This document shows, piece by piece, positions 2,112 to 12,711 of a stretch of DNA of 13,971 nt (position 1 is its first letter; every line of letters starts with the position of its first letter). The position numbers were made by a program, and so were the translations under genes. A model generated the notes under the pieces. It did not search any database. It was given only the letters and a program-made list of their open reading frames with translations, and was not told where the DNA came from. The stretch is from UHGV virus genome UHGV-1842250; one strand, written 5' to 3'. The stretch comes from a virus.

Positions 2112-2758
2112 GCTGCACGCTCCCGCCCCTGGTTGTCTATTGGTGACACCGGAGCATTGCTGAATGCATTTGTTAATCCGCCAATATCCAACGCGTATCC
2201 AGGGTGTAGTTGCACTGCCGGGTCTTCGCACTGATTACCCCAAACATCGAAGCCATGAGACGTCTGGCGGGCGAACAGTTCAATGCGAGAAACATCGCCT
2301 AACAATTGCACAAGTTTTTCACGAACGACATCTGGTTTTCTTGAATGCTCAAGCCGCGGTGCGGTAAATGACTGAACGATCCCTGCATTAATGCGTGGAG
2401 GTAGTTTTCCCTTTACTGCAAACAGGCAATCTTCACTATTGGCGCGAGTCATGTGTCCCATACCCATAACCAGTTTATCTGGTTGTCGACTACCACATTT
2501 TATCCACGTGAAGCCCTTCATCGTCATCAGACGAAATCCCCAGGCTTCAACAACTTTTAGTGCTTCGAGTGGTTGTGTTGGCACCCACCACATGGCCAAC
2601 AGACAGTTTTCAGCGGTCAAATCCCACACAGGAAGGCGGCAGATATCCAGCACACTCATAACTGGATATTTAAAACCGGCACCGCGATTACCATCTGCGG
2701 CTTTGTCCCGGTATACCCAGGGTGGATCTGCATAGATTAGTGTGTATTTCTTAGTCAT
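2108..2758 (-). CDS. MT-A70-family DNA N6-adenine methyltransferase
   Basis: N-terminus [16 protein letters not shown] contains the DPPW catalytic motif of MT-A70 / phage Dam-like methyltransferases. Start ATG at 2758 is preceded by a G-rich SD (GGGGTGG); the stop TGA overlaps the phosphatase ATG as ATGA. Confidence 0.88.
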
Positions 2759-3050
2759 AAACCACCCCACAACATCCTATGCCGCTATAGTCGCCACGGC
2801 GAAGGCCGTTACCTTTTGTGATACATTGGTCCCTGCGAACCGCGATCCTTGCACGTTCAACATCACCAGAAGCAACATCCATACACTGAAGCCAAAGGTG
2901 AGCGGCAATGCGGAATTGCCCTTTTTTCTCTCTTTCAATCGCGCGTTTTTCGATCTCTATCGCCGCAGGAGTAACGGCGACAATCTTTGAAGGGCTGCGC
3001 ATTGAAACCTTGTTCATGTGATATTTTTCAAGTCGGCTTAACTTTCTCAC
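2751..3050 (-). CDS. Hypothetical protein, function unknown
   Basis: Only sizeable ORF filling the 400-bp gap between the excisionase and methyltransferase genes on the operon strand. GTG at 3050 is preceded by GAGGG; alternative ATG starts at 3017 and 3002. Its 3' end overlaps the methyltransferase start by 8 nt. I recognise no family. Confidence 0.45.
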   Translation of the reverse strand: MRKLSRLEKYHMNKVSMRSPSKIVAVTPAAIEIEKRAIEREKKGQFRIAAHLWLQCMDVASGDVERARIAVRRDQCITKGNGLRRGDYSGIGCCGVVYD

Positions 3051-3457: not shown

Positions 3458-4399
3458 TTACATAGATGTTTCGTTTAATTCTTCTCGACGAACGCTGTAA
3501 ACGTCGGTGGCTTTTGCCAGCAGTTCGTCATCATCTGAAAGTTTTTGTGCAATGTATTTGTAAGCCTTATCCAGTTCGGAGACAGTGCTGTAATTCATCG
3601 CTGCGCTGGTAAAGGCCATCAGCATTTCTTCTGGATCACGGCTATCCGATTTACGCGTTTGCTCATCAGGCTTTTTCGCTGGTTTAGCGTTGATCAGACT
3701 GTTCATTCCCGCAGCAGTGGTCGTTTGCGGAGTAATGTCTCGCTCAACGCGCGGTGCCGTTTCCTGTAATTCGTCTGGGGTGTAGACGCCCATGATTACG
3801 TCAGGACAGTGCAGGCGAGACCAGCGTTTTGTCGCAAGGTATGCGAGTTGTTGTTTCGGATCACTGGCCCAAAGTGTGGAGTTTCTTACCTGTGCTTGAG
3901 ACAGCATTAACTCAAGCACTCGAGGTTGATCCTCGCCCTTCATGGTTGCCCATACGCGAACACCGCAGCCTTCTTCGTCTTTTAGAGTCCAGCCTGGTGC
4001 GATATATGGATTGCCGTTTTTGGATGTTTTCTCAACAAACTTACCGATCACGCGTTCCCACGGCCCAAACCACTCGTAGTTGATGCGATCTTTTGTTGGC
4101 GACATCGTTGAGATAACTGCGTTTACTAATTGGGCTTCATAACCTAGCGTGCCGTTCACAACATGGGTTTTCTGAGCCACGGCAAACGGGTTCATTCCCC
4201 ACTGCGCAGCCTGCATTGCCACGGCCATGCAATCAGCTGGTTTCCCGGCGAGGTGCGCCGGTACCGTTACGCGGCTTTGCGCCATTACCTCGGCGAATTT
4301 CATCAGTTGGTTCAAGCCGTCTGGGCTGAAAATAGTTGCAGCAGTTCCAGCGATTGCTGTGTCTACTGGTGCGTTGATGTTTGCGATGTCGTTGCTCAT
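3458..4399 (-). CDS. bet: Single-strand annealing protein, RecT/Red-beta (Bet) family
   Basis: 313 aa. The segment ETAPRVERDITPQ resembles the lambda Bet region ERQPERDITPV, and the gene sits directly downstream of an exonuclease gene as in the lambda exo-bet pair. Start ATG at 4399 has AGGA upstream and overlaps the exonuclease stop (ATGA). Confidence 0.85.
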   Translation of the reverse strand: MSNDIANINAPVDTAIAGTAATIFSPDGLNQLMKFAEVMAQSRVTVPAHLAGKPADCMAVAMQAAQWGMNPFAVAQKTHVVNGTLGYEAQLVNAVISTMSPTKDRINYEWFGPWERVIGKFVEKTSKNGNPYIAPGWTLKDEEGCGVRVWATMKGEDQPRVLELMLSQAQVRNSTLWASDPKQQLAYLATKRWSRLHCPDVIMGVYTPDELQETAPRVERDITPQTTTAAGMNSLINAKPAKKPDEQTRKSDSRDPEEMLMAFTSAAMNYSTVSELDKAYKYIAQKLSDDDELLAKATDVYSVRREELNETSM

Positions 4400-4926
4400 A
4401 TGTACATATCCTGTTTGCGTGCCCACTCAGGGCGTTTAATGATTTCCACACCGCCCCATTCATCATTGATGCGGCATTCGTGATAGGTATTCAGATCCCG
4501 GCGGAACAGAGCGTGCCCGGCATCGACATCCTGCGCATCCAGCTCGAACACGCGTACCGGATACCGACCACAATCAATGCTTTCGCTCACGGCAAGAAAG
4601 AAAAAACCATGCGGCTGACCAGTAACCCTCATTGCGCCTTCGCGGTACATTGCGTCCTGCACGTGGTAGCGGAATTCCTCGATGTGGCGTGCAAAACGGT
4701 CCATATCTGCAACCTTTTTCACGTCGACGATCACGTTGTGCTCGTTCAGCCATTTGTCTGGACGAATTCGGCACAACTCACCCGTCTCTTCATCGTTCCA
4801 GTACATTGATGCTTCGCAGTAACCAGGTGCTTCCAACATCCAGCGTGCCGCCGGATGAGCCATTGCGCTATCACGCATAAGCTCCAGTTTCCGCCACTGC
4901 TCGGCATCAAGTACCGTAATCACCAT
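4396..4926 (-). CDS. PD-(D/E)xK exonuclease, C-terminal part (gene interrupted by a frameshift)
   Basis: Contains the nuclease core motifs RIRPD ... VIVDVKKV. This reading frame is open from 5130 to 4396, but its first ~55 codons overlap the N-terminal fragment's frame and look non-coding; 4926 is the first internal ATG. The partner fragment is 4937..5212. Confidence 0.7.
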   Translation of the reverse strand: MVITVLDAEQWRKLELMRDSAMAHPAARWMLEAPGYCEASMYWNDEETGELCRIRPDKWLNEHNVIVDVKKVADMDRFARHIEEFRYHVQDAMYREGAMRVTGQPHGFFFLAVSESIDCGRYPVRVFELDAQDVDAGHALFRRDLNTYHECRINDEWGGVEIIKRPEWARKQDMYI

Positions 4927-7147: not shown

Positions 7148-7958
7148 GGTTGAAGTTATCACTCCTGATAAACCTGAAATTTTTCAGATAGCAGAAATTC
7201 TGGGTATTGATCCAGATGCTGTTCTTGGAAAGCTGGTTCGTATATGGGCATGGGCTGACCAGCAAACAATAGACGGTAACGCTGGCAGCGTTACAAAAGG
7301 AGTACTTGATAGACTCGCTTTTATTACAGGATTTGCTGACGCCCTCATTAGCGTCGGATGGCTTGCTTATCATGACGGCAAACTAATTCTTCCAAACTTT
7401 GAGCGACATAATGGAGAATCATCGAAAAAACGTGCACTTACGAATAGAAGAGTGGCAGAGCATCGAAAACGAGTAACGCAAAAAGTAACGCCAACAGCGT
7501 TACAAAAGGAGTTACCAGAGGAAGAGGAAGAGGAAGATATATATAAAACCCCACACATAGCGCACGTGCGCGAGGGTGCTCCGACCAGTGAAGCGAACGG
7601 TATGCCGTTGCAGGTGGCTGAACCTGAATTTCTGGATGGCCTGAGTGAACCCATCGGGAAATTTCCGATGACCGATGGCTGGCATCCGTCGCCGGATTTT
7701 CGACGGCGTGCTGCGCTGTGGGGAACGGCCCTGCCGGAACCGGAATTTACACCTGCTGAACTTGCTGCATTCCGGGATTACTGGATGGCTGAGGGCAAAG
7801 TGTTCACGCAGGTTCAGTGGGAACAAAAATTCGCCAGGCACGTAAATCATATCAGGGGAAAATCAAAAAACGCCGGGAAAAGCGATGAGCTTGACTGGAA
7901 TAACACTGACTGGATAGAAGGGGTGTGGGATGAAATCAACTCCAGAACTTCTCAATGA
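7128..7958 (+). CDS. Replication initiator (lambda O analogue) with DnaT-like C-terminal domain
   Basis: ATG at 7128 preceded by SD GAGGGG. C-terminal motif PSPDFRRRAALWG...PEPEFTPAELAAFRDYWMAEGKVFTQVQWEQKFARHV resembles the DnaT/primosomal C-terminal domain. Iteron-like repeats and an AT-rich patch lie inside the gene, and the lambda-P-like gene follows directly. Confidence 0.8.
   Translation: MASSWIKVEVITPDKPEIFQIAEILGIDPDAVLGKLVRIWAWADQQTIDGNAGSVTKGVLDRLAFITGFADALISVGWLAYHDGKLILPNFERHNGESSKKRALTNRRVAEHRKRVTQKVTPTALQKELPEEEEEEDIYKTPHIAHVREGAPTSEANGMPLQVAEPEFLDGLSEPIGKFPMTDGWHPSPDFRRRAALWGTALPEPEFTPAELAAFRDYWMAEGKVFTQVQWEQKFARHVNHIRGKSKNAGKSDELDWNNTDWIEGVWDEINSRTSQ
7276..7548. repeat. Candidate replication origin inside the O-like gene: iterons, 18-bp exact direct repeat, (GAGGAA)x3 and AT-rich patch
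   Basis: GTAACGC at 7276, 7473 and 7485; its inverse GCGTTAC at 7288 and 7497 (12-bp periodicity in the second cluster). CAGCGTTACAAAAGGAGT is repeated exactly at 7286-7303 and 7495-7512 and is read in different codon frames (AGSVTKGV vs PTALQKEL). CATCGAAAA(A)ACG at 7420 and 7461, GAGGAA x3 at 7518-7535, GATATATATAAAA at 7536-7548. Confidence 0.6.
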
Positions 7959-11391: not shown

Positions 11392-11665
11392 CCTGCAACT
11401 TATCCTCAAAGGTGAATACTTCGATGCCATGATTCGCGGAGAGAAAACGGAAGAGTATCGCCTGTGTAATGACTACTGGAATAAGCGAATTATGTTCCGG
11501 GAGTATGACCGCCTGATTATCACAAAGGGATATCCGAAGCGCGACGATTCCAGCCGTAGAATTGATGTTCCGTATGACGGATATGAAATCAAGACAATCA
11601 CACATCCGCACTTCGGAGATAAACCGGTAAAGGTGTTCGCGATAAAGGTAAATATTGATGGCTAA
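11384..11665 (+). CDS. ASCH/DUF3850-like PUA-fold domain protein
   Basis: GTG start at 11384 with a perfect SD (AGGAGG, 6-nt spacing), overlapping the upstream stop. N-terminus LQLILKGEYFDAMIRGEKTEEYR matches the usual ASCH opening. Confidence 0.6.
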   Translation: MANLQLILKGEYFDAMIRGEKTEEYRLCNDYWNKRIMFREYDRLIITKGYPKRDDSSRRIDVPYDGYEIKTITHPHFGDKPVKVFAIKVNIDG

Positions 11666-11996
11666 ATCAGCAGCAGAGCGCAAAGCCGCTCAGAGAGCCA
11701 GACAAGCTGCATCTGGTGTGCGTAAGCTGGAGATTGTGCTTGATGCTCAGGAAATTGAAATGCTGGAGCGTAACTGTGCCACGCGTCGCCCCGGGCGTGC
11801 GCCTTACGAATTTGGTGAGTATATAGCGTTACTGATCCGCCAGGATGATGCACGCGTGCACGGGCGTATAAAATCGATCAGCAGAACACGTTGCGGTAAG
11901 TGCGGCGAGAGAGTTCCAGTTAATTCATGTCCGTGTAATGGTGACTCACAATGCTGGGTGACTAAAGGCTGGCATGAAACGAAATTAATAGTGTGA
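11658..11996 (+). CDS. Basic N-terminal / Zn-ribbon C-terminal small protein, candidate late-gene regulator
   Basis: 112 aa. Basic helical N-terminus (ERKAAQRARQAASGVRKLEIVLDAQEIEMLERN) and C-terminal CGKCGERVPVNSCPCNG. Last gene before the pre-terminase terminator. The regulator assignment is positional inference only. Confidence 0.55.
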   Translation: MAKSAAERKAAQRARQAASGVRKLEIVLDAQEIEMLERNCATRRPGRAPYEFGEYIALLIRQDDARVHGRIKSISRTRCGKCGERVPVNSCPCNGDSQCWVTKGWHETKLIV

Positions 11997-12004
11997 CATG
12001 TCAC
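11993..12004. promoter_or_regulatory. 12-bp perfect palindrome GTGACATGTCAC overlapping the stop codon of the preceding gene
   Basis: Perfect dyad lying about 40 bp upstream of the terminator at 12046-12071. Could be a protein-binding site. Confidence 0.3.
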
Positions 12005-12045
12005 GAGTAGATTATGCATGATGAATTTGACGGGTTTTGAATACT

Positions 12046-12071
12046 GCCGCCAACTATGGCGGCTTTATTTT
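12046..12071 (+). terminator. Strong rho-independent terminator between the early/accessory genes and the terminase genes
   Basis: 7-bp GC-rich stem GCCGCCA (12046-12052) / TGGCGGC (12057-12063), 4-nt loop ACTA, then TTTATTTT. Confidence 0.7.
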
Positions 12072-12082
12072 GCATGGTACTA

Positions 12083-12115
12083 TTACCACAACGGTAACTA
12101 TTACCACGGTGGTTA
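12083..12115. promoter_or_regulatory. Tandem operator-like sites immediately upstream of the terminase small-subunit gene
   Basis: Perfect TTACCACAACGGTAA (12083-12097) followed 18 bp later by TTACCACGGTGGTTA (12101-12115). Half-sites chain as GGTA-cta-TTACC-N5-GGTAA-cta-TTACC-N5-GGTTA, echoing GGTAACTATCC at 6485-6495. No convincing sigma70 -35/-10 pair nearby. Confidence 0.5.
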
Positions 12116-12711
12116 TGATGCCTGCTGAACCTAAAACCTATAAACGCAAATCAACGCAATTTAAGCCACTAACAGCAATGCAGGAGGCTTATTGCCAGTC
12201 ATACATCAAAACGCCTGAAAACCAGACTCAGGCAGCGATTAACGCAGGATTCTCCCCAAATACAGCGGCAGTTAAAGCCAGTGTCATGATGCGCGATGAA
12301 CGCATTCAAAAACGGATTGCCGAGTTGATGGAGGAGCGCAACAAACGAATGCGCGTCAGTGCTGATTACGTTCTCATGCGCCTGGTGGAGATCGACCAGA
12401 TGGACGTGATCGACATCCTCAACGACGATGGGAGCCTTAAACCAATCCGTGAGTGGCCGAAAATCTGGCGCACTACGCTTAGTGGCTTTGATCTGTCATC
12501 GACCATCATGAACATGAACGAGGATTCGATAGAGACAATCCTCAAAAAAATTAAATGGCCTGACAAGGTGAAGAACCTTGAGCTGATTGGTAAGCATGTT
12601 GATGTCAACGCGTTCAAAGAACGTCTGGATGTTAATGTGAATGTGACAATTGCTGATCGCATAGCAGCAGCCAGGAAGCGACTCAAAGAACGTCAGGATG
12701 GTAATCAGTGA
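12115..12711 (+). CDS. terS: Terminase small subunit
   Basis: Resembles phage small terminase subunits (AYCQSYIKTPENQTQAAINAGFSP...AAVKASVMMRDERIQKRIAEL) and sits directly upstream of, and overlapping, the large-subunit gene. Start taken as ATG 12115 (or 12118); the track's TTG at 12037 would run through the terminator and operator sites. Confidence 0.82.
   Translation: MMPAEPKTYKRKSTQFKPLTAMQEAYCQSYIKTPENQTQAAINAGFSPNTAAVKASVMMRDERIQKRIAELMEERNKRMRVSADYVLMRLVEIDQMDVIDILNDDGSLKPIREWPKIWRTTLSGFDLSSTIMNMNEDSIETILKKIKWPDKVKNLELIGKHVDVNAFKERLDVNVNVTIADRIAAARKRLKERQDGNQ

What the first reader, a model, noticed from the sequence alone, without database searches (positions are those of the whole stretch)
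11993..12004. Perfect 12-bp palindrome GTGACATGTCAC at the junction before the terminase terminator
The dyad overlaps the stop codon of the Zn-ribbon gene and lies about 40 bp before the terminator stem. It occurs once in the window and is unrelated to the TTACC/GGTAA motif, so it may be the binding site of a second regulator such as a late activator.
Basis: seen in the sequence. Interest (0 to 1): 0.35.

Follow-up and report, generated by a model that had tools for sequence, protein, structure and literature searches.

The report
Conserved phage palindrome, likely protein operator
The 12-base palindrome is a real, conserved element that travels with a small uncharacterised phage protein encoded just upstream and is most likely that protein's DNA-binding site, though its role at the early/late gene boundary is unproven.

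Summary
GTGACATGTCAC is at 11993-12004, overlaps the TGA stop of the 112-aa gene, and lies 41 nt before a strong intrinsic terminator. By count it is unremarkable: 4 perfect 12-bp palindromes in the window against 3.9 expected. Comparison changes the picture. The window is an epsilon15/phiV10-type (Uetakevirus) prophage. The motif GTGAC-N2-GTCAC occurs 2-6 times per genome in unrelated phages that encode a homolog of this gene (expected about 0.03) and 0 times in lambda, P22 and P2. In 113 of 130 loci with a homolog, a copy lies within about 60 nt of the gene's 3' end, in at least 21 unrelated downstream contexts. A divergent Pseudomonas lineage has GTTAC-N2-GTAAC instead. The palindrome is therefore most likely the operator of the upstream protein. 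That family (PHROG 536) has no Pfam domain. It shows a ribbon-helix-helix-like N-terminal half and a weak TraR/DksA-like zinc module. In epsilon15 and PAS61 the three copies sit at operon ends next to terminators. In several siphophages the gene occupies the slot that Q has in lambda. A role in transcription across the early/late junction is plausible but unproven. The half-sites equal those of E. coli matS, but homology to MatP was not supported.

The parts
11993..12004 (.). 12-bp perfect palindrome GTGAC-AT-GTCAC. It is the gene-proximal copy of a dispersed site family (GTGAC-N2-GTCAC) and the presumed operator of the upstream protein.
   Evidence: presence; conservation, multiplicity, linkage to the gene.
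11658..11996 (+). Gene for a 112-aa protein (PHROG 536, epsilon15 gp49 / N15 gp46 family). It has a basic N-terminal helix, a ribbon-helix-helix-like segment, a long helix, a Cys-rich zinc knuckle (C79, C82, C91, C99) and a C-terminal helix. It is the last gene of the early rightward operon.
   Evidence: family and conserved residues; AF2 pLDDT 92; weak TraR/DksA-like similarity; no Pfam family.
12005..12045 (+). Variable spacer. Positions 12020-12040 are the remnant 3' end of a 70-aa gene that other E. coli prophages carry between the palindrome and the terminator.
   Evidence: (locus L220) compared (21+ IMG/VR loci with the inserted gene).
12046..12071 (+). Rho-independent terminator GCCGCCAACTATGGCGGC followed by TTTATTTT, between the early operon and the small terminase gene.
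   Evidence: The homologous hairpin is annotated as a terminator in the epsilon15 record.
12082..12098 (.). ATTACC-N5-GGTAAC inverted repeat, within the direct repeats ACTATTACCAC at 12079-12089 and 12097-12107. It matches the sites annotated as prophage-repressor binding sites in epsilon15.
12118..12711 (+). Small terminase subunit gene (Terminase_2), the first late gene downstream of the junction. terL follows from 12708.

Best explanation
The palindrome is the gene-proximal operator of the small protein encoded immediately upstream (PHROG 536 family). A dimer of that protein would bind the two GTGAC half-sites; this is inferred. In epsilon15 and PAS61 three copies sit at the ends of transcription units beside intrinsic terminators: the end of the early right operon, the end of terL, and the end of the tail/ejection-protein operon. 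One E. coli prophage has only two. I therefore infer that the bound protein acts on RNA polymerase crossing these junctions. I favour control of read-through from early into late genes. The reasons are that the gene sits where lambda Q sits in several siphophages and that its C-terminal half weakly resembles the RNA-polymerase-binding TraR/DksA zinc module. What is shown: conservation, multiplicity, gene-site linkage, and one change of site specificity in a divergent lineage. What is inferred: binding itself, dimer recognition, contact with RNA polymerase, and the direction of the effect. My confidence in 'cognate binding site of the upstream protein' is about 0.75. My confidence in 'transcription control at the junction' is about 0.4, and in read-through promotion specifically about 0.25. 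The overall figure of 0.55 weighs these layers together.
For: 1. Exact conservation of the 12-mer while flanks diverge in epsilon15, SPN1S, PAT1, Omnitron and ZF40. 2. GTGAC-N2-GTCAC counts per complete genome with a homolog: epsilon15 3, PAS61 3, Omnitron 3, ZF40 3, N15 3, Vibrio K308 3, Vibrio 10N.237 2, YenM 1. The Markov expectation is 0.015-0.043 per genome, and lambda, P22 and P2 have none. 3. GTGAC is the top or joint-top 5-N2-5 inverted repeat in those genomes in an unbiased enumeration. 4. In 113 of 130 loci with a near-full-length homolog, a site lies within about 60 nt of the gene's 3' end, in 21 non-redundant and unrelated downstream contexts. It often overlaps the stop codon, also in N15, YenM and Vibrio 10N.237. 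5. Reverse test: of 120 IMG/VR loci picked only by the 14-mer TGTGACATGTCACA, 32 hold a homolog within the few kb fetched. 6. Covariation: a Pseudomonas phage with a homolog of about 30% identity has GTTAC-N2-GTAAC six times in 20 kb and a hybrid GTGACAGGTAAC over the gene's stop. Another distant lineage has GTGAC-N2-GTCAC six times in 20 kb, one of them over the stop. 7. Invariant half-sites with a free central dinucleotide and a weak RNA hairpin (-2.9 kcal/mol, z -0.2) fit a dimeric DNA-binding protein rather than an RNA structure. 8. In epsilon15 and PAS61 all three copies adjoin terminator hairpins (7 of 22 sites against 6.8% background). 9. In K308, 10N.237, L224, L225 and L221 the gene is the last early gene. 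In four of them (not L221) the scan finds a near-consensus promoter, a 57-104 nt leader and a strong terminator before the lysis/terminase/head genes. 10. The C-terminal half gives borderline profile matches to YbiI and F-plasmid TraR (E 0.014-0.02), and hhalign against a small TraR/DksA-like alignment gives probability 65%, E 6e-5. The AF2 model shows a long helix, a zinc knuckle and a C-terminal helix.
Against: There is no experimental evidence of binding. The fold of the N-terminal half is not securely assigned: Foldseek finds nothing significant, and Pfam RHH models hit only 2 of 70 members weakly. The TraR/DksA similarity is borderline, and the distal CxxC pair is replaced by single cysteines. 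The distance from site to terminator is not fixed: 1-3, 23 and 41 nt, or more than 250 nt when a 70-aa gene is inserted. At the terL copy the hairpin precedes the site on the + strand. One E. coli prophage lacks the terL copy. Omnitron, ZF40 and N15 carry the gene together with a Q-like antiterminator, so the protein is not a general replacement for Q. Many copies in N15, ZF40, Omnitron and the Pseudomonas phage lie inside ORFs, far from promoters or terminators. In the siphophages the palindrome lies 54-147 bp upstream of the late promoter at variable distance, unlike a Q-binding element. The epsilon15 record places repressor sites before each late operon, which implies separate late promoters.
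Confidence: 0.55

Rival explanations
1. Same protein-site pair, but the opposite sign. The bound protein is a roadblock or insulator that reinforces the terminators. It would keep early, late and convergent cargo-gene transcription apart, or shut down read-through late in infection.
For: The copies at the end of terL and of the tail operon lie between convergent genes next to bidirectional hairpins. A symmetric site works from both directions. In N15 and the L081/L220 variants the site lies directly before the RBS of the next gene, where a block would give autoregulated attenuation.
Against: Small dimeric repressors are usually poor roadblocks (general knowledge). A block placed before a strong terminator is redundant at the window's copy. 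This reading does not explain the Q-like position of the gene before promoter-terminator-late operon modules, nor the intragenic copies inside long late operons in the Pseudomonas phage, which would then hurt late expression.
Confidence: 0.15
2. Same protein-site pair, but a DNA-level role rather than a transcriptional one. This would be a private matS/MatP-like or parS/ParB-like system that bridges, compacts, positions or marks the phage chromosome through a few dispersed palindromes.
For: The half-sites are identical to those of matS (GTGAC[AG]N[CT]GTCAC; PMC3603311), and MatP binds matS through a ribbon-helix-helix (PMC12756933). A site next to the gene of its binding protein plus a few dispersed copies is the typical layout of centromere-like systems (general knowledge). 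Many copies are intragenic and roughly evenly spaced. In P2-like phages and K308, copies lie near the cos/terminase region.
Against: The spacer is 2 nt, not 3. hhalign of the family against MatP gives probability 0.3% and Foldseek does not find MatP. The family also occurs in Pseudomonas, which as far as I know lacks MatP. No partner ATPase is conserved next to the gene. In epsilon15 and PAS61 every copy is at a transcription-unit end.
Confidence: 0.15
3. The element works in RNA, as a 3'-UTR or leader hairpin recognised by a nuclease or RNA-binding protein, for example to process or stabilise the early mRNA.
For: It lies in transcribed DNA at the 3' ends of genes, often just 5' of a terminator or an RBS.
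Against: The RNA hairpin is marginal: 5 bp, -2.9 kcal/mol, z -0.21. The stem bases are invariant rather than covarying across distant phages, while the central bases vary. Copies occur in genes on either strand. There is no Rfam family, only a sub-threshold rseX match of 27 bits against a threshold of 50.
Confidence: 0.04
4. A chance palindrome, or the site of a host factor (for example MatP or a CRP/FNR-like protein), unrelated to the neighbouring gene.
For: The count of 12-bp palindromes in the window equals expectation. The 14-mer is also found in many IMG/VR contexts without a homolog in the fetched stretch. The half-sites are matS-like.
Against: Genome-level enrichment is about 100-fold, and only in carriers of the gene. 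The site is at the 3' end of the gene in 87% of loci. The site changes with the protein lineage in a Pseudomonas phage. Prophages otherwise avoid matS (PMC3603311).
Confidence: 0.04

Closest known systems
Lambda Q / pR' / qut / tR' late antitermination module
   Same: A small zinc-containing protein is encoded by the last early gene. Its presumed DNA site lies directly after the gene, and an intrinsic terminator stands before the late genes. In siphophage carriers there is a full promoter, short leader and terminator arrangement after the gene.
   Different: There is no sequence or fold similarity to any Q family. There is no promoter at the window's site. The site is a palindrome at variable distance from promoter and terminator, and it is repeated elsewhere in the genome, including inside ORFs. 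Lambdoid carriers keep their own Q.
MatP / matS (Ter macrodomain organiser of E. coli)
   Same: Identical half-sites GTGAC/GTCAC in inverted orientation. A few dispersed copies. A (probable) ribbon-helix-helix reader.
   Different: matS is 13 bp (spacer RNY), while the phage site is 12 bp (spacer NN). Only K308 has one canonical matS. No detectable homology to MatP. A different domain make-up: no four-helix bundle, plus a zinc module. The family also occurs in Pseudomonas phages.
TraR / DksA / YbiI C4 zinc-finger proteins (RNA polymerase secondary-channel binders, common in phages and plasmids)
   Same: Long helix, then CxxCG..(I/L)P..G...C zinc module, then a C-terminal helix. There are borderline profile matches and the AF2 topology agrees.
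   Different: The second CxxC pair is not conserved. An extra N-terminal DNA-binding-like half is present. The free acidic N-terminal tip that TraR inserts into the channel is absent. Known members do not bind specific DNA sites (general knowledge).
Ribbon-helix-helix phage repressors (Arc, Mnt) and RHH regulators (MetJ, CopG)
   Same: Small proteins with short palindromic operators that have conserved half-sites. The sequence pattern is strand, helix, helix, and there are weak RHH_5 and YbfE hits.
   Different: The operator is at the 3' end of the gene and at operon ends, not in a promoter. There is an added zinc module. The RHH fold is not confirmed.

Membership tests
Lambda-type Q antitermination module | Regulator gene is the last early gene, directly upstream of the late genes | tested here: met
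   In the window the gene ends at 11996 and terS starts at 12118. The same holds in K308, 10N.237, L221, L224 and L225. It does not hold in Omnitron, ZF40 or N15.
Lambda-type Q antitermination module | Constitutive late promoter between the regulator gene and the terminator, with the binding element at fixed geometry in or next to it | tested here: not met
   The only promoter-like match in the window uses the palindrome itself as a -35 with a weak -10, and the downstream DNA is a variable cargo slot. In siphophages a promoter exists, but the palindrome is 54-147 bp upstream at variable distance.
Lambda-type Q antitermination module | Homology to a Q protein family | tested here: not met
   No Pfam or NCBIfam family. 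No significant Foldseek match.
MatP / matS | 13-bp site GTGAC[AG]N[CT]GTCAC | tested here: not met
   The site is 12 bp with a 2-nt spacer. No canonical matS is present in the window or in 12 of 13 phage genomes. The consensus is taken from PMC3603311.
MatP / matS | Binding protein homologous to MatP | tested here: not met
   hhalign of the 70-sequence family profile against E. coli MatP gives probability 0.3%, E 0.2. MatP is absent from the Foldseek hits.
Ribbon-helix-helix DNA-binding proteins | Strand-helix-helix fold forming a dimer with an antiparallel beta-ribbon | tested here: inconclusive
   The AF2 monomer shows coil 20-29, helix 30-42 and helix 52-74. The best PDB fold match is 5ytp, probability 0.84 but E 0.84. 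RHH_5 hits 2 of 70 members, and YbfE scores E 0.05. A dimer model could not be run.
DksA/TraR C4-type zinc finger proteins | CxxC-N17-CxxC zinc finger preceded by a long helix and followed by a C-terminal helix | tested here: inconclusive
   The topology is present. Profile matches are E 0.014-0.02 and hhalign gives probability 65%. However, only C79, C82 and C99 are conserved, and the second pair is not CxxC.
DksA/TraR C4-type zinc finger proteins | Binds the RNA polymerase secondary channel | not testable with these tools
   This needs pull-down, cross-linking or cryo-EM.
Rho-independent terminator (for 12046-12071) | GC-rich hairpin followed by a T-run, more stable than shuffles | tested here: met
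   7-bp stem with 6 GC pairs, tail TTTATTTT; -14.5 kcal/mol, z -3.55. Conserved and annotated in epsilon15.
Cognate protein-operator pair (general) | Site co-occurs with the gene and changes when the protein diverges | tested here: met
   co-occurrence; GTTAC variant in one Pseudomonas lineage, GTGAC in another. Binding itself was not tested.

The most novel reading that the evidence does not exclude
PHROG 536 proteins would be a new class of phage transcription-elongation regulators. A ribbon-helix-helix-like domain would park the protein on dispersed GTGAC-N2-GTCAC sites, and a TraR/DksA-derived zinc module would engage RNA polymerase as it passes. That would make the polymerase read through the terminators that separate early from late operons. 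In effect this would be a fourth Q-like antiterminator family, loaded from palindromes rather than at a promoter. A more exotic variant is that the matS-like sites let the phage protein compete with, or imitate, host MatP.
Probability: 0.15. Interest if true: 0.8.

Novelty: new variant of a known kind. Interest (0 to 1): 0.55.

Why it matters
How epsilon15/phiV10-type phages, which are common E. coli and Salmonella prophages, switch on late genes is not known, as far as I know. They have no recognisable Q, N or late activator. This analysis pairs an uncharacterised but widespread small phage protein (208 clusters at 50% identity, found in podo-, myo- and siphophages of enterics, Vibrio, Pseudoalteromonas and Pseudomonas) with a precise DNA motif. 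The function becomes directly testable by EMSA, site mutation and term-seq. If the protein proves to be a DNA-tethered RNA-polymerase-binding factor, it would add a new mechanism to phage temporal control. If it is instead a matS-like DNA-organising system, it would be the first such system described for phage genomes that I am aware of. It also shows that a published scan for the 13-bp matS motif, which found none in prophages, would not have detected this 12-bp relative.

Tried and rejected
1. Promoter reading. GTGACA resembles a -35, and pairs it with CATGAT at 18 bp. I rejected this because the downstream DNA is not conserved between E. coli and Salmonella phages and is a cargo slot holding a 70-aa gene in other prophages. 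The other genomic copies have no matching -10.
2. RNA hairpin or known RNA family. The fold is weak and Rfam gives only a sub-threshold rseX match.
3. Physical genome end (cos/pac). The phiV10 record starts at window position 11997, but other Uetakevirus records start at different nearby positions, so this is an annotation convention.
4. MatP homology. Not supported. The last homology search returned only near-identical MatP sequences, so no MatP profile could be built.
5. First structure model from 20 close sequences. It was poor (pLDDT 63) and its fold search was meaningless. The 70-sequence model was good but still found no significant structural relative.
6. Literature. No paper contains the 12-mer and none addresses epsilon15 gp49. 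The ZX5 paper treats the repressor, anti-repressor and integrase only. TTHA0139 could not be looked up.
7. Universal adjacency to terminators. Rejected, since it holds only for Uetakevirus, Omnitron and one Vibrio site.
8. PerC-family ORF 2751..3050 as the late activator. It belongs to a family known for virulence-gene activation, with no link to the palindrome.
9. The IMG/VR scan with a 14-mer gives many hits that may be chance in so large a collection, so I used only the fraction that holds the gene.

Full report
**Observation**

The window holds GTGACATGTCAC at 11993-12004.
- The TGA at 11994-11996 ends the ORF 11658..11996.
- A strong intrinsic terminator follows: stem 12046-12063 and tail TTTATTTT, -14.5 kcal/mol, z -3.55.
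- The small terminase gene follows at 12118-12711 (Terminase_2).
- The palindrome is unique in the window even with two mismatches allowed.

On its own this is not remarkable. The window has four perfect 12-bp palindromes against 3.9 expected.

**Context**

The window is an epsilon15/phiV10-type (Uetakevirus) prophage of E. coli.
- It carries an integrase, recombination genes, a repressor/cro pair, replication genes and a run of accessory early genes.
- The 112-aa gene is the last early gene and the terminase genes follow.
- The junction is found in 609 of 5426 complete E. coli genomes.

**Conservation**

- The 12-mer is exactly conserved in epsilon15, SPN1S, PAT1, the lambdoid Citrobacter phage Omnitron and Pectobacterium phage ZF40, while the adjacent codons and downstream DNA differ. 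In Omnitron it extends to a 20-bp perfect palindrome.
- Complete epsilon15 and PAS61 genomes each contain exactly three copies: after the 112-aa gene, after terL, and at the end of the long tail/ejection-protein operon.
- Each copy adjoins a terminator hairpin, and two lie between convergent genes.
- One E. coli prophage has only the first and third copies.

**Link to the gene**

Homologs of the protein occur in very different phages:
- Uetakevirus podophages;
- myophage ZF40;
- P2-like Yersinia phages;
- N15-like telomere phages;
- Vibrio, Pseudoalteromonas and Pseudomonas siphophages.

The family is PHROG 536. It has no Pfam domain, 721 close relatives and 208 clusters at 50% identity.

Five lines of evidence tie the motif to this gene.
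1. GTGAC-N2-GTCAC occurs 3, 3, 3, 3, 3, 3, 2 and 1 times in eight carrier genomes, against a Markov expectation of 0.015-0.043. It occurs 0 times in lambda, P22 and P2.
2. In an unbiased enumeration of all 5-N2-5 inverted repeats, GTGAC is the top or joint-top half-site in the carriers.
3. In 113 of 130 loci with a near-full-length homolog, a copy lies within about 60 nt of the gene's 3' end. It often overlaps the stop codon. Across 21 non-redundant contexts the downstream DNA is unrelated.
4. Conversely, 32 of 120 viral contigs chosen only by the 14-mer TGTGACATGTCACA hold the gene within the few kb fetched. By comparison, 154 of 50,697 phage records (0.3%) contain the gene.
5. A Pseudomonas phage with a homolog of about 30% identity carries GTTAC-N2-GTAAC six times in 20 kb, with a hybrid GTGACAGGTAAC over the gene's stop. 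Another distant lineage carries GTGAC-N2-GTCAC six times in 20 kb.

I conclude that the palindrome is the cognate DNA site of this protein. This is inferred and not shown by binding.

**DNA or RNA**

DNA recognition by a dimer is the better fit.
- The half-sites are invariant and the central dinucleotide is free.
- The RNA hairpin is marginal.
- Copies occur inside genes on either strand.
- No Rfam family matches above threshold.

**The protein**

A 70-sequence alignment gives a confident AF2 model, pLDDT 92. Its parts are:
- a basic helix, residues 5-19;
- an extended segment, 20-29;
- helices 30-42 and 52-74;
- a cysteine knuckle, with C79 and C82 invariant and C99 at 90% or more;
- a C-terminal helix.

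The first half has the sequence pattern of a ribbon-helix-helix, but support is weak. The second half gives borderline matches to YbiI and F-plasmid TraR (E 0.014-0.02). hhalign against a small TraR/DksA-like alignment gives probability 65%, E 6e-5. TraR and DksA bind the secondary channel of RNA polymerase (general knowledge). This is a lead, not a finding, because the second CxxC pair is not conserved.

**What the site does**

The geometry argues against a classical activator site.
- There is no promoter with fixed spacing in the window.
- The 41-nt spacer is the remnant of a 70-aa gene that other prophages carry between palindrome and terminator.
- Omnitron, ZF40 and N15 carry the gene alongside a Q-like antiterminator.
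- Adjacency to terminators is enriched (7 of 22 sites against 6.8% background) but confined to some lineages.

Other evidence keeps a late-regulatory role open.
- In K308, Vibrio 10N.237, Pseudoalteromonas L224 and Pseudomonas-type L225 and L221, the gene is the last early gene.
- In four of them (not L221) the scan finds a near-consensus promoter, a 57-104 nt leader and a strong terminator before the lysis, terminase and head genes. This is the layout of lambda Q/pR'/tR'.
- No known Q family is called there.
- The palindrome, however, lies 54-147 bp upstream of that promoter, at variable distance.

My best reading is that the protein sits on these sites and acts on RNA polymerase crossing operon junctions, probably favouring read-through into late genes. 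A roadblock/insulator role and a DNA-organising role remain serious rivals.

**matS**

The half-sites equal those of matS, the 13-bp site of the E. coli Ter-macrodomain protein MatP (GTGAC[AG]N[CT]GTCAC; PMC3603311). MatP reads matS with a ribbon-helix-helix (PMC12756933). Membership fails on three points.
- The spacer is one base shorter.
- hhalign against MatP is negative.
- The family also occurs in Pseudomonas.

The resemblance may be convergent. Whether MatP or the phage protein cross-binds the other's site is an open experimental question.

**Verdict**

Its significance comes from comparative evidence, not from the window alone. The system is undescribed in the literature I could search.

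Noticed in passing
It matches the 16-17 bp sites annotated as prophage-repressor binding sites in the epsilon15 record, which lie before terS, gp3 and the tail fibre gene and in the immunity region. The prophage repressor may therefore bind directly in front of the late genes.
   Followed up: partly
window 12005-12045; locus L220 415-627: The spacer between palindrome and terminator is a deletion remnant. Other E. coli prophages carry a 70-aa gene of unknown function there (MPKIRYDLEDMRDN...). The window keeps only its last codons (GATGAATTTGACGGGTTTTGA), preceded by a mini-ORF ATG at 12014.
   Followed up: partly
L009 14570-14640 and IMG/VR loci L011-L090 (copy after terL, outside the window): The palindrome after terL marks the exact border between the conserved terL-terminator block and a highly variable minus-strand cargo gene. 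At least 7 unrelated genes occur there, and each ends 4 nt from the palindrome. One E. coli prophage (L227) has lost this copy and carries a tRNA-Arg and another gene instead.
   Followed up: partly
L225 10191-10388; L224 8490-8609; L093 33336-33495; L096 9015-9124: The late promoter modules downstream of the homolog in unrelated siphophages share sequence. The -35/-10 spacer contains GGCGGTT in L224 and 10N.237. The early transcribed region contains TA(T/G)CGTGGTG-like motifs, a -10-like element that could act as a sigma-dependent pause signal as at lambda pR'. These could be the true recognition elements of an antiterminator.
   Followed up: no
window 2751-3050 (- strand): A 99-aa PerC-family transcriptional activator (PF06069, E 6e-7; PHROG 868) is encoded in the early-left region of this prophage. 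PerC/Pch homologs are known for activating virulence genes in pathogenic E. coli.
   Followed up: partly
window 11985-12070 (+): A sub-threshold Rfam match to the Hfq-binding sRNA rseX (27 bits against a gathering score of 50, E 0.14-0.58) spans exactly from the palindrome to the end of the terminator. It is probably driven by the terminator and is treated as chance.
   Followed up: partly
window 4398-4409, 7560-7571, 11849-11860: There are three other perfect 12-bp palindromes: ATATGTACATAT, GCGCACGTGCGC and TGCACGCGTGCA. The last lies inside the 112-aa gene. Their number equals chance expectation, and conservation was not checked.
   Followed up: no
L010 (N15), L224 2672 and 8478: N15 has four CGACC-N2-GGTCG inverted repeats, possibly its dispersed partition sites. 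In the Pseudoalteromonas phage L224, an ACACG-N3-CGTGT palindrome occurs both in the repressor/cro intergenic region and directly abutting the -35 of the late promoter. This suggests direct repressor control of the late promoter, as the annotated sites suggest for epsilon15.
   Followed up: no
L213 4380-4470 (P2-like phage); L144, L200, L125/L205: Some contigs show clusters of full and half sites, such as TGTGACAC repeats or two sites about 20 nt apart. In P2-like phages a site lies between the cos-like region and the terminator of the portal gene, 585 bp after the homolog.
   Followed up: no
L007 26618; L009 18193; L008 16618; L094 2958: Degenerate copies such as GTGACATGGCAT or ATGACATGGCAC overlap the stop codons of other genes: epsilon15 Rz and the Aeromonas homolog, which has no perfect site. 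They may be decayed or weak sites.
   Followed up: no
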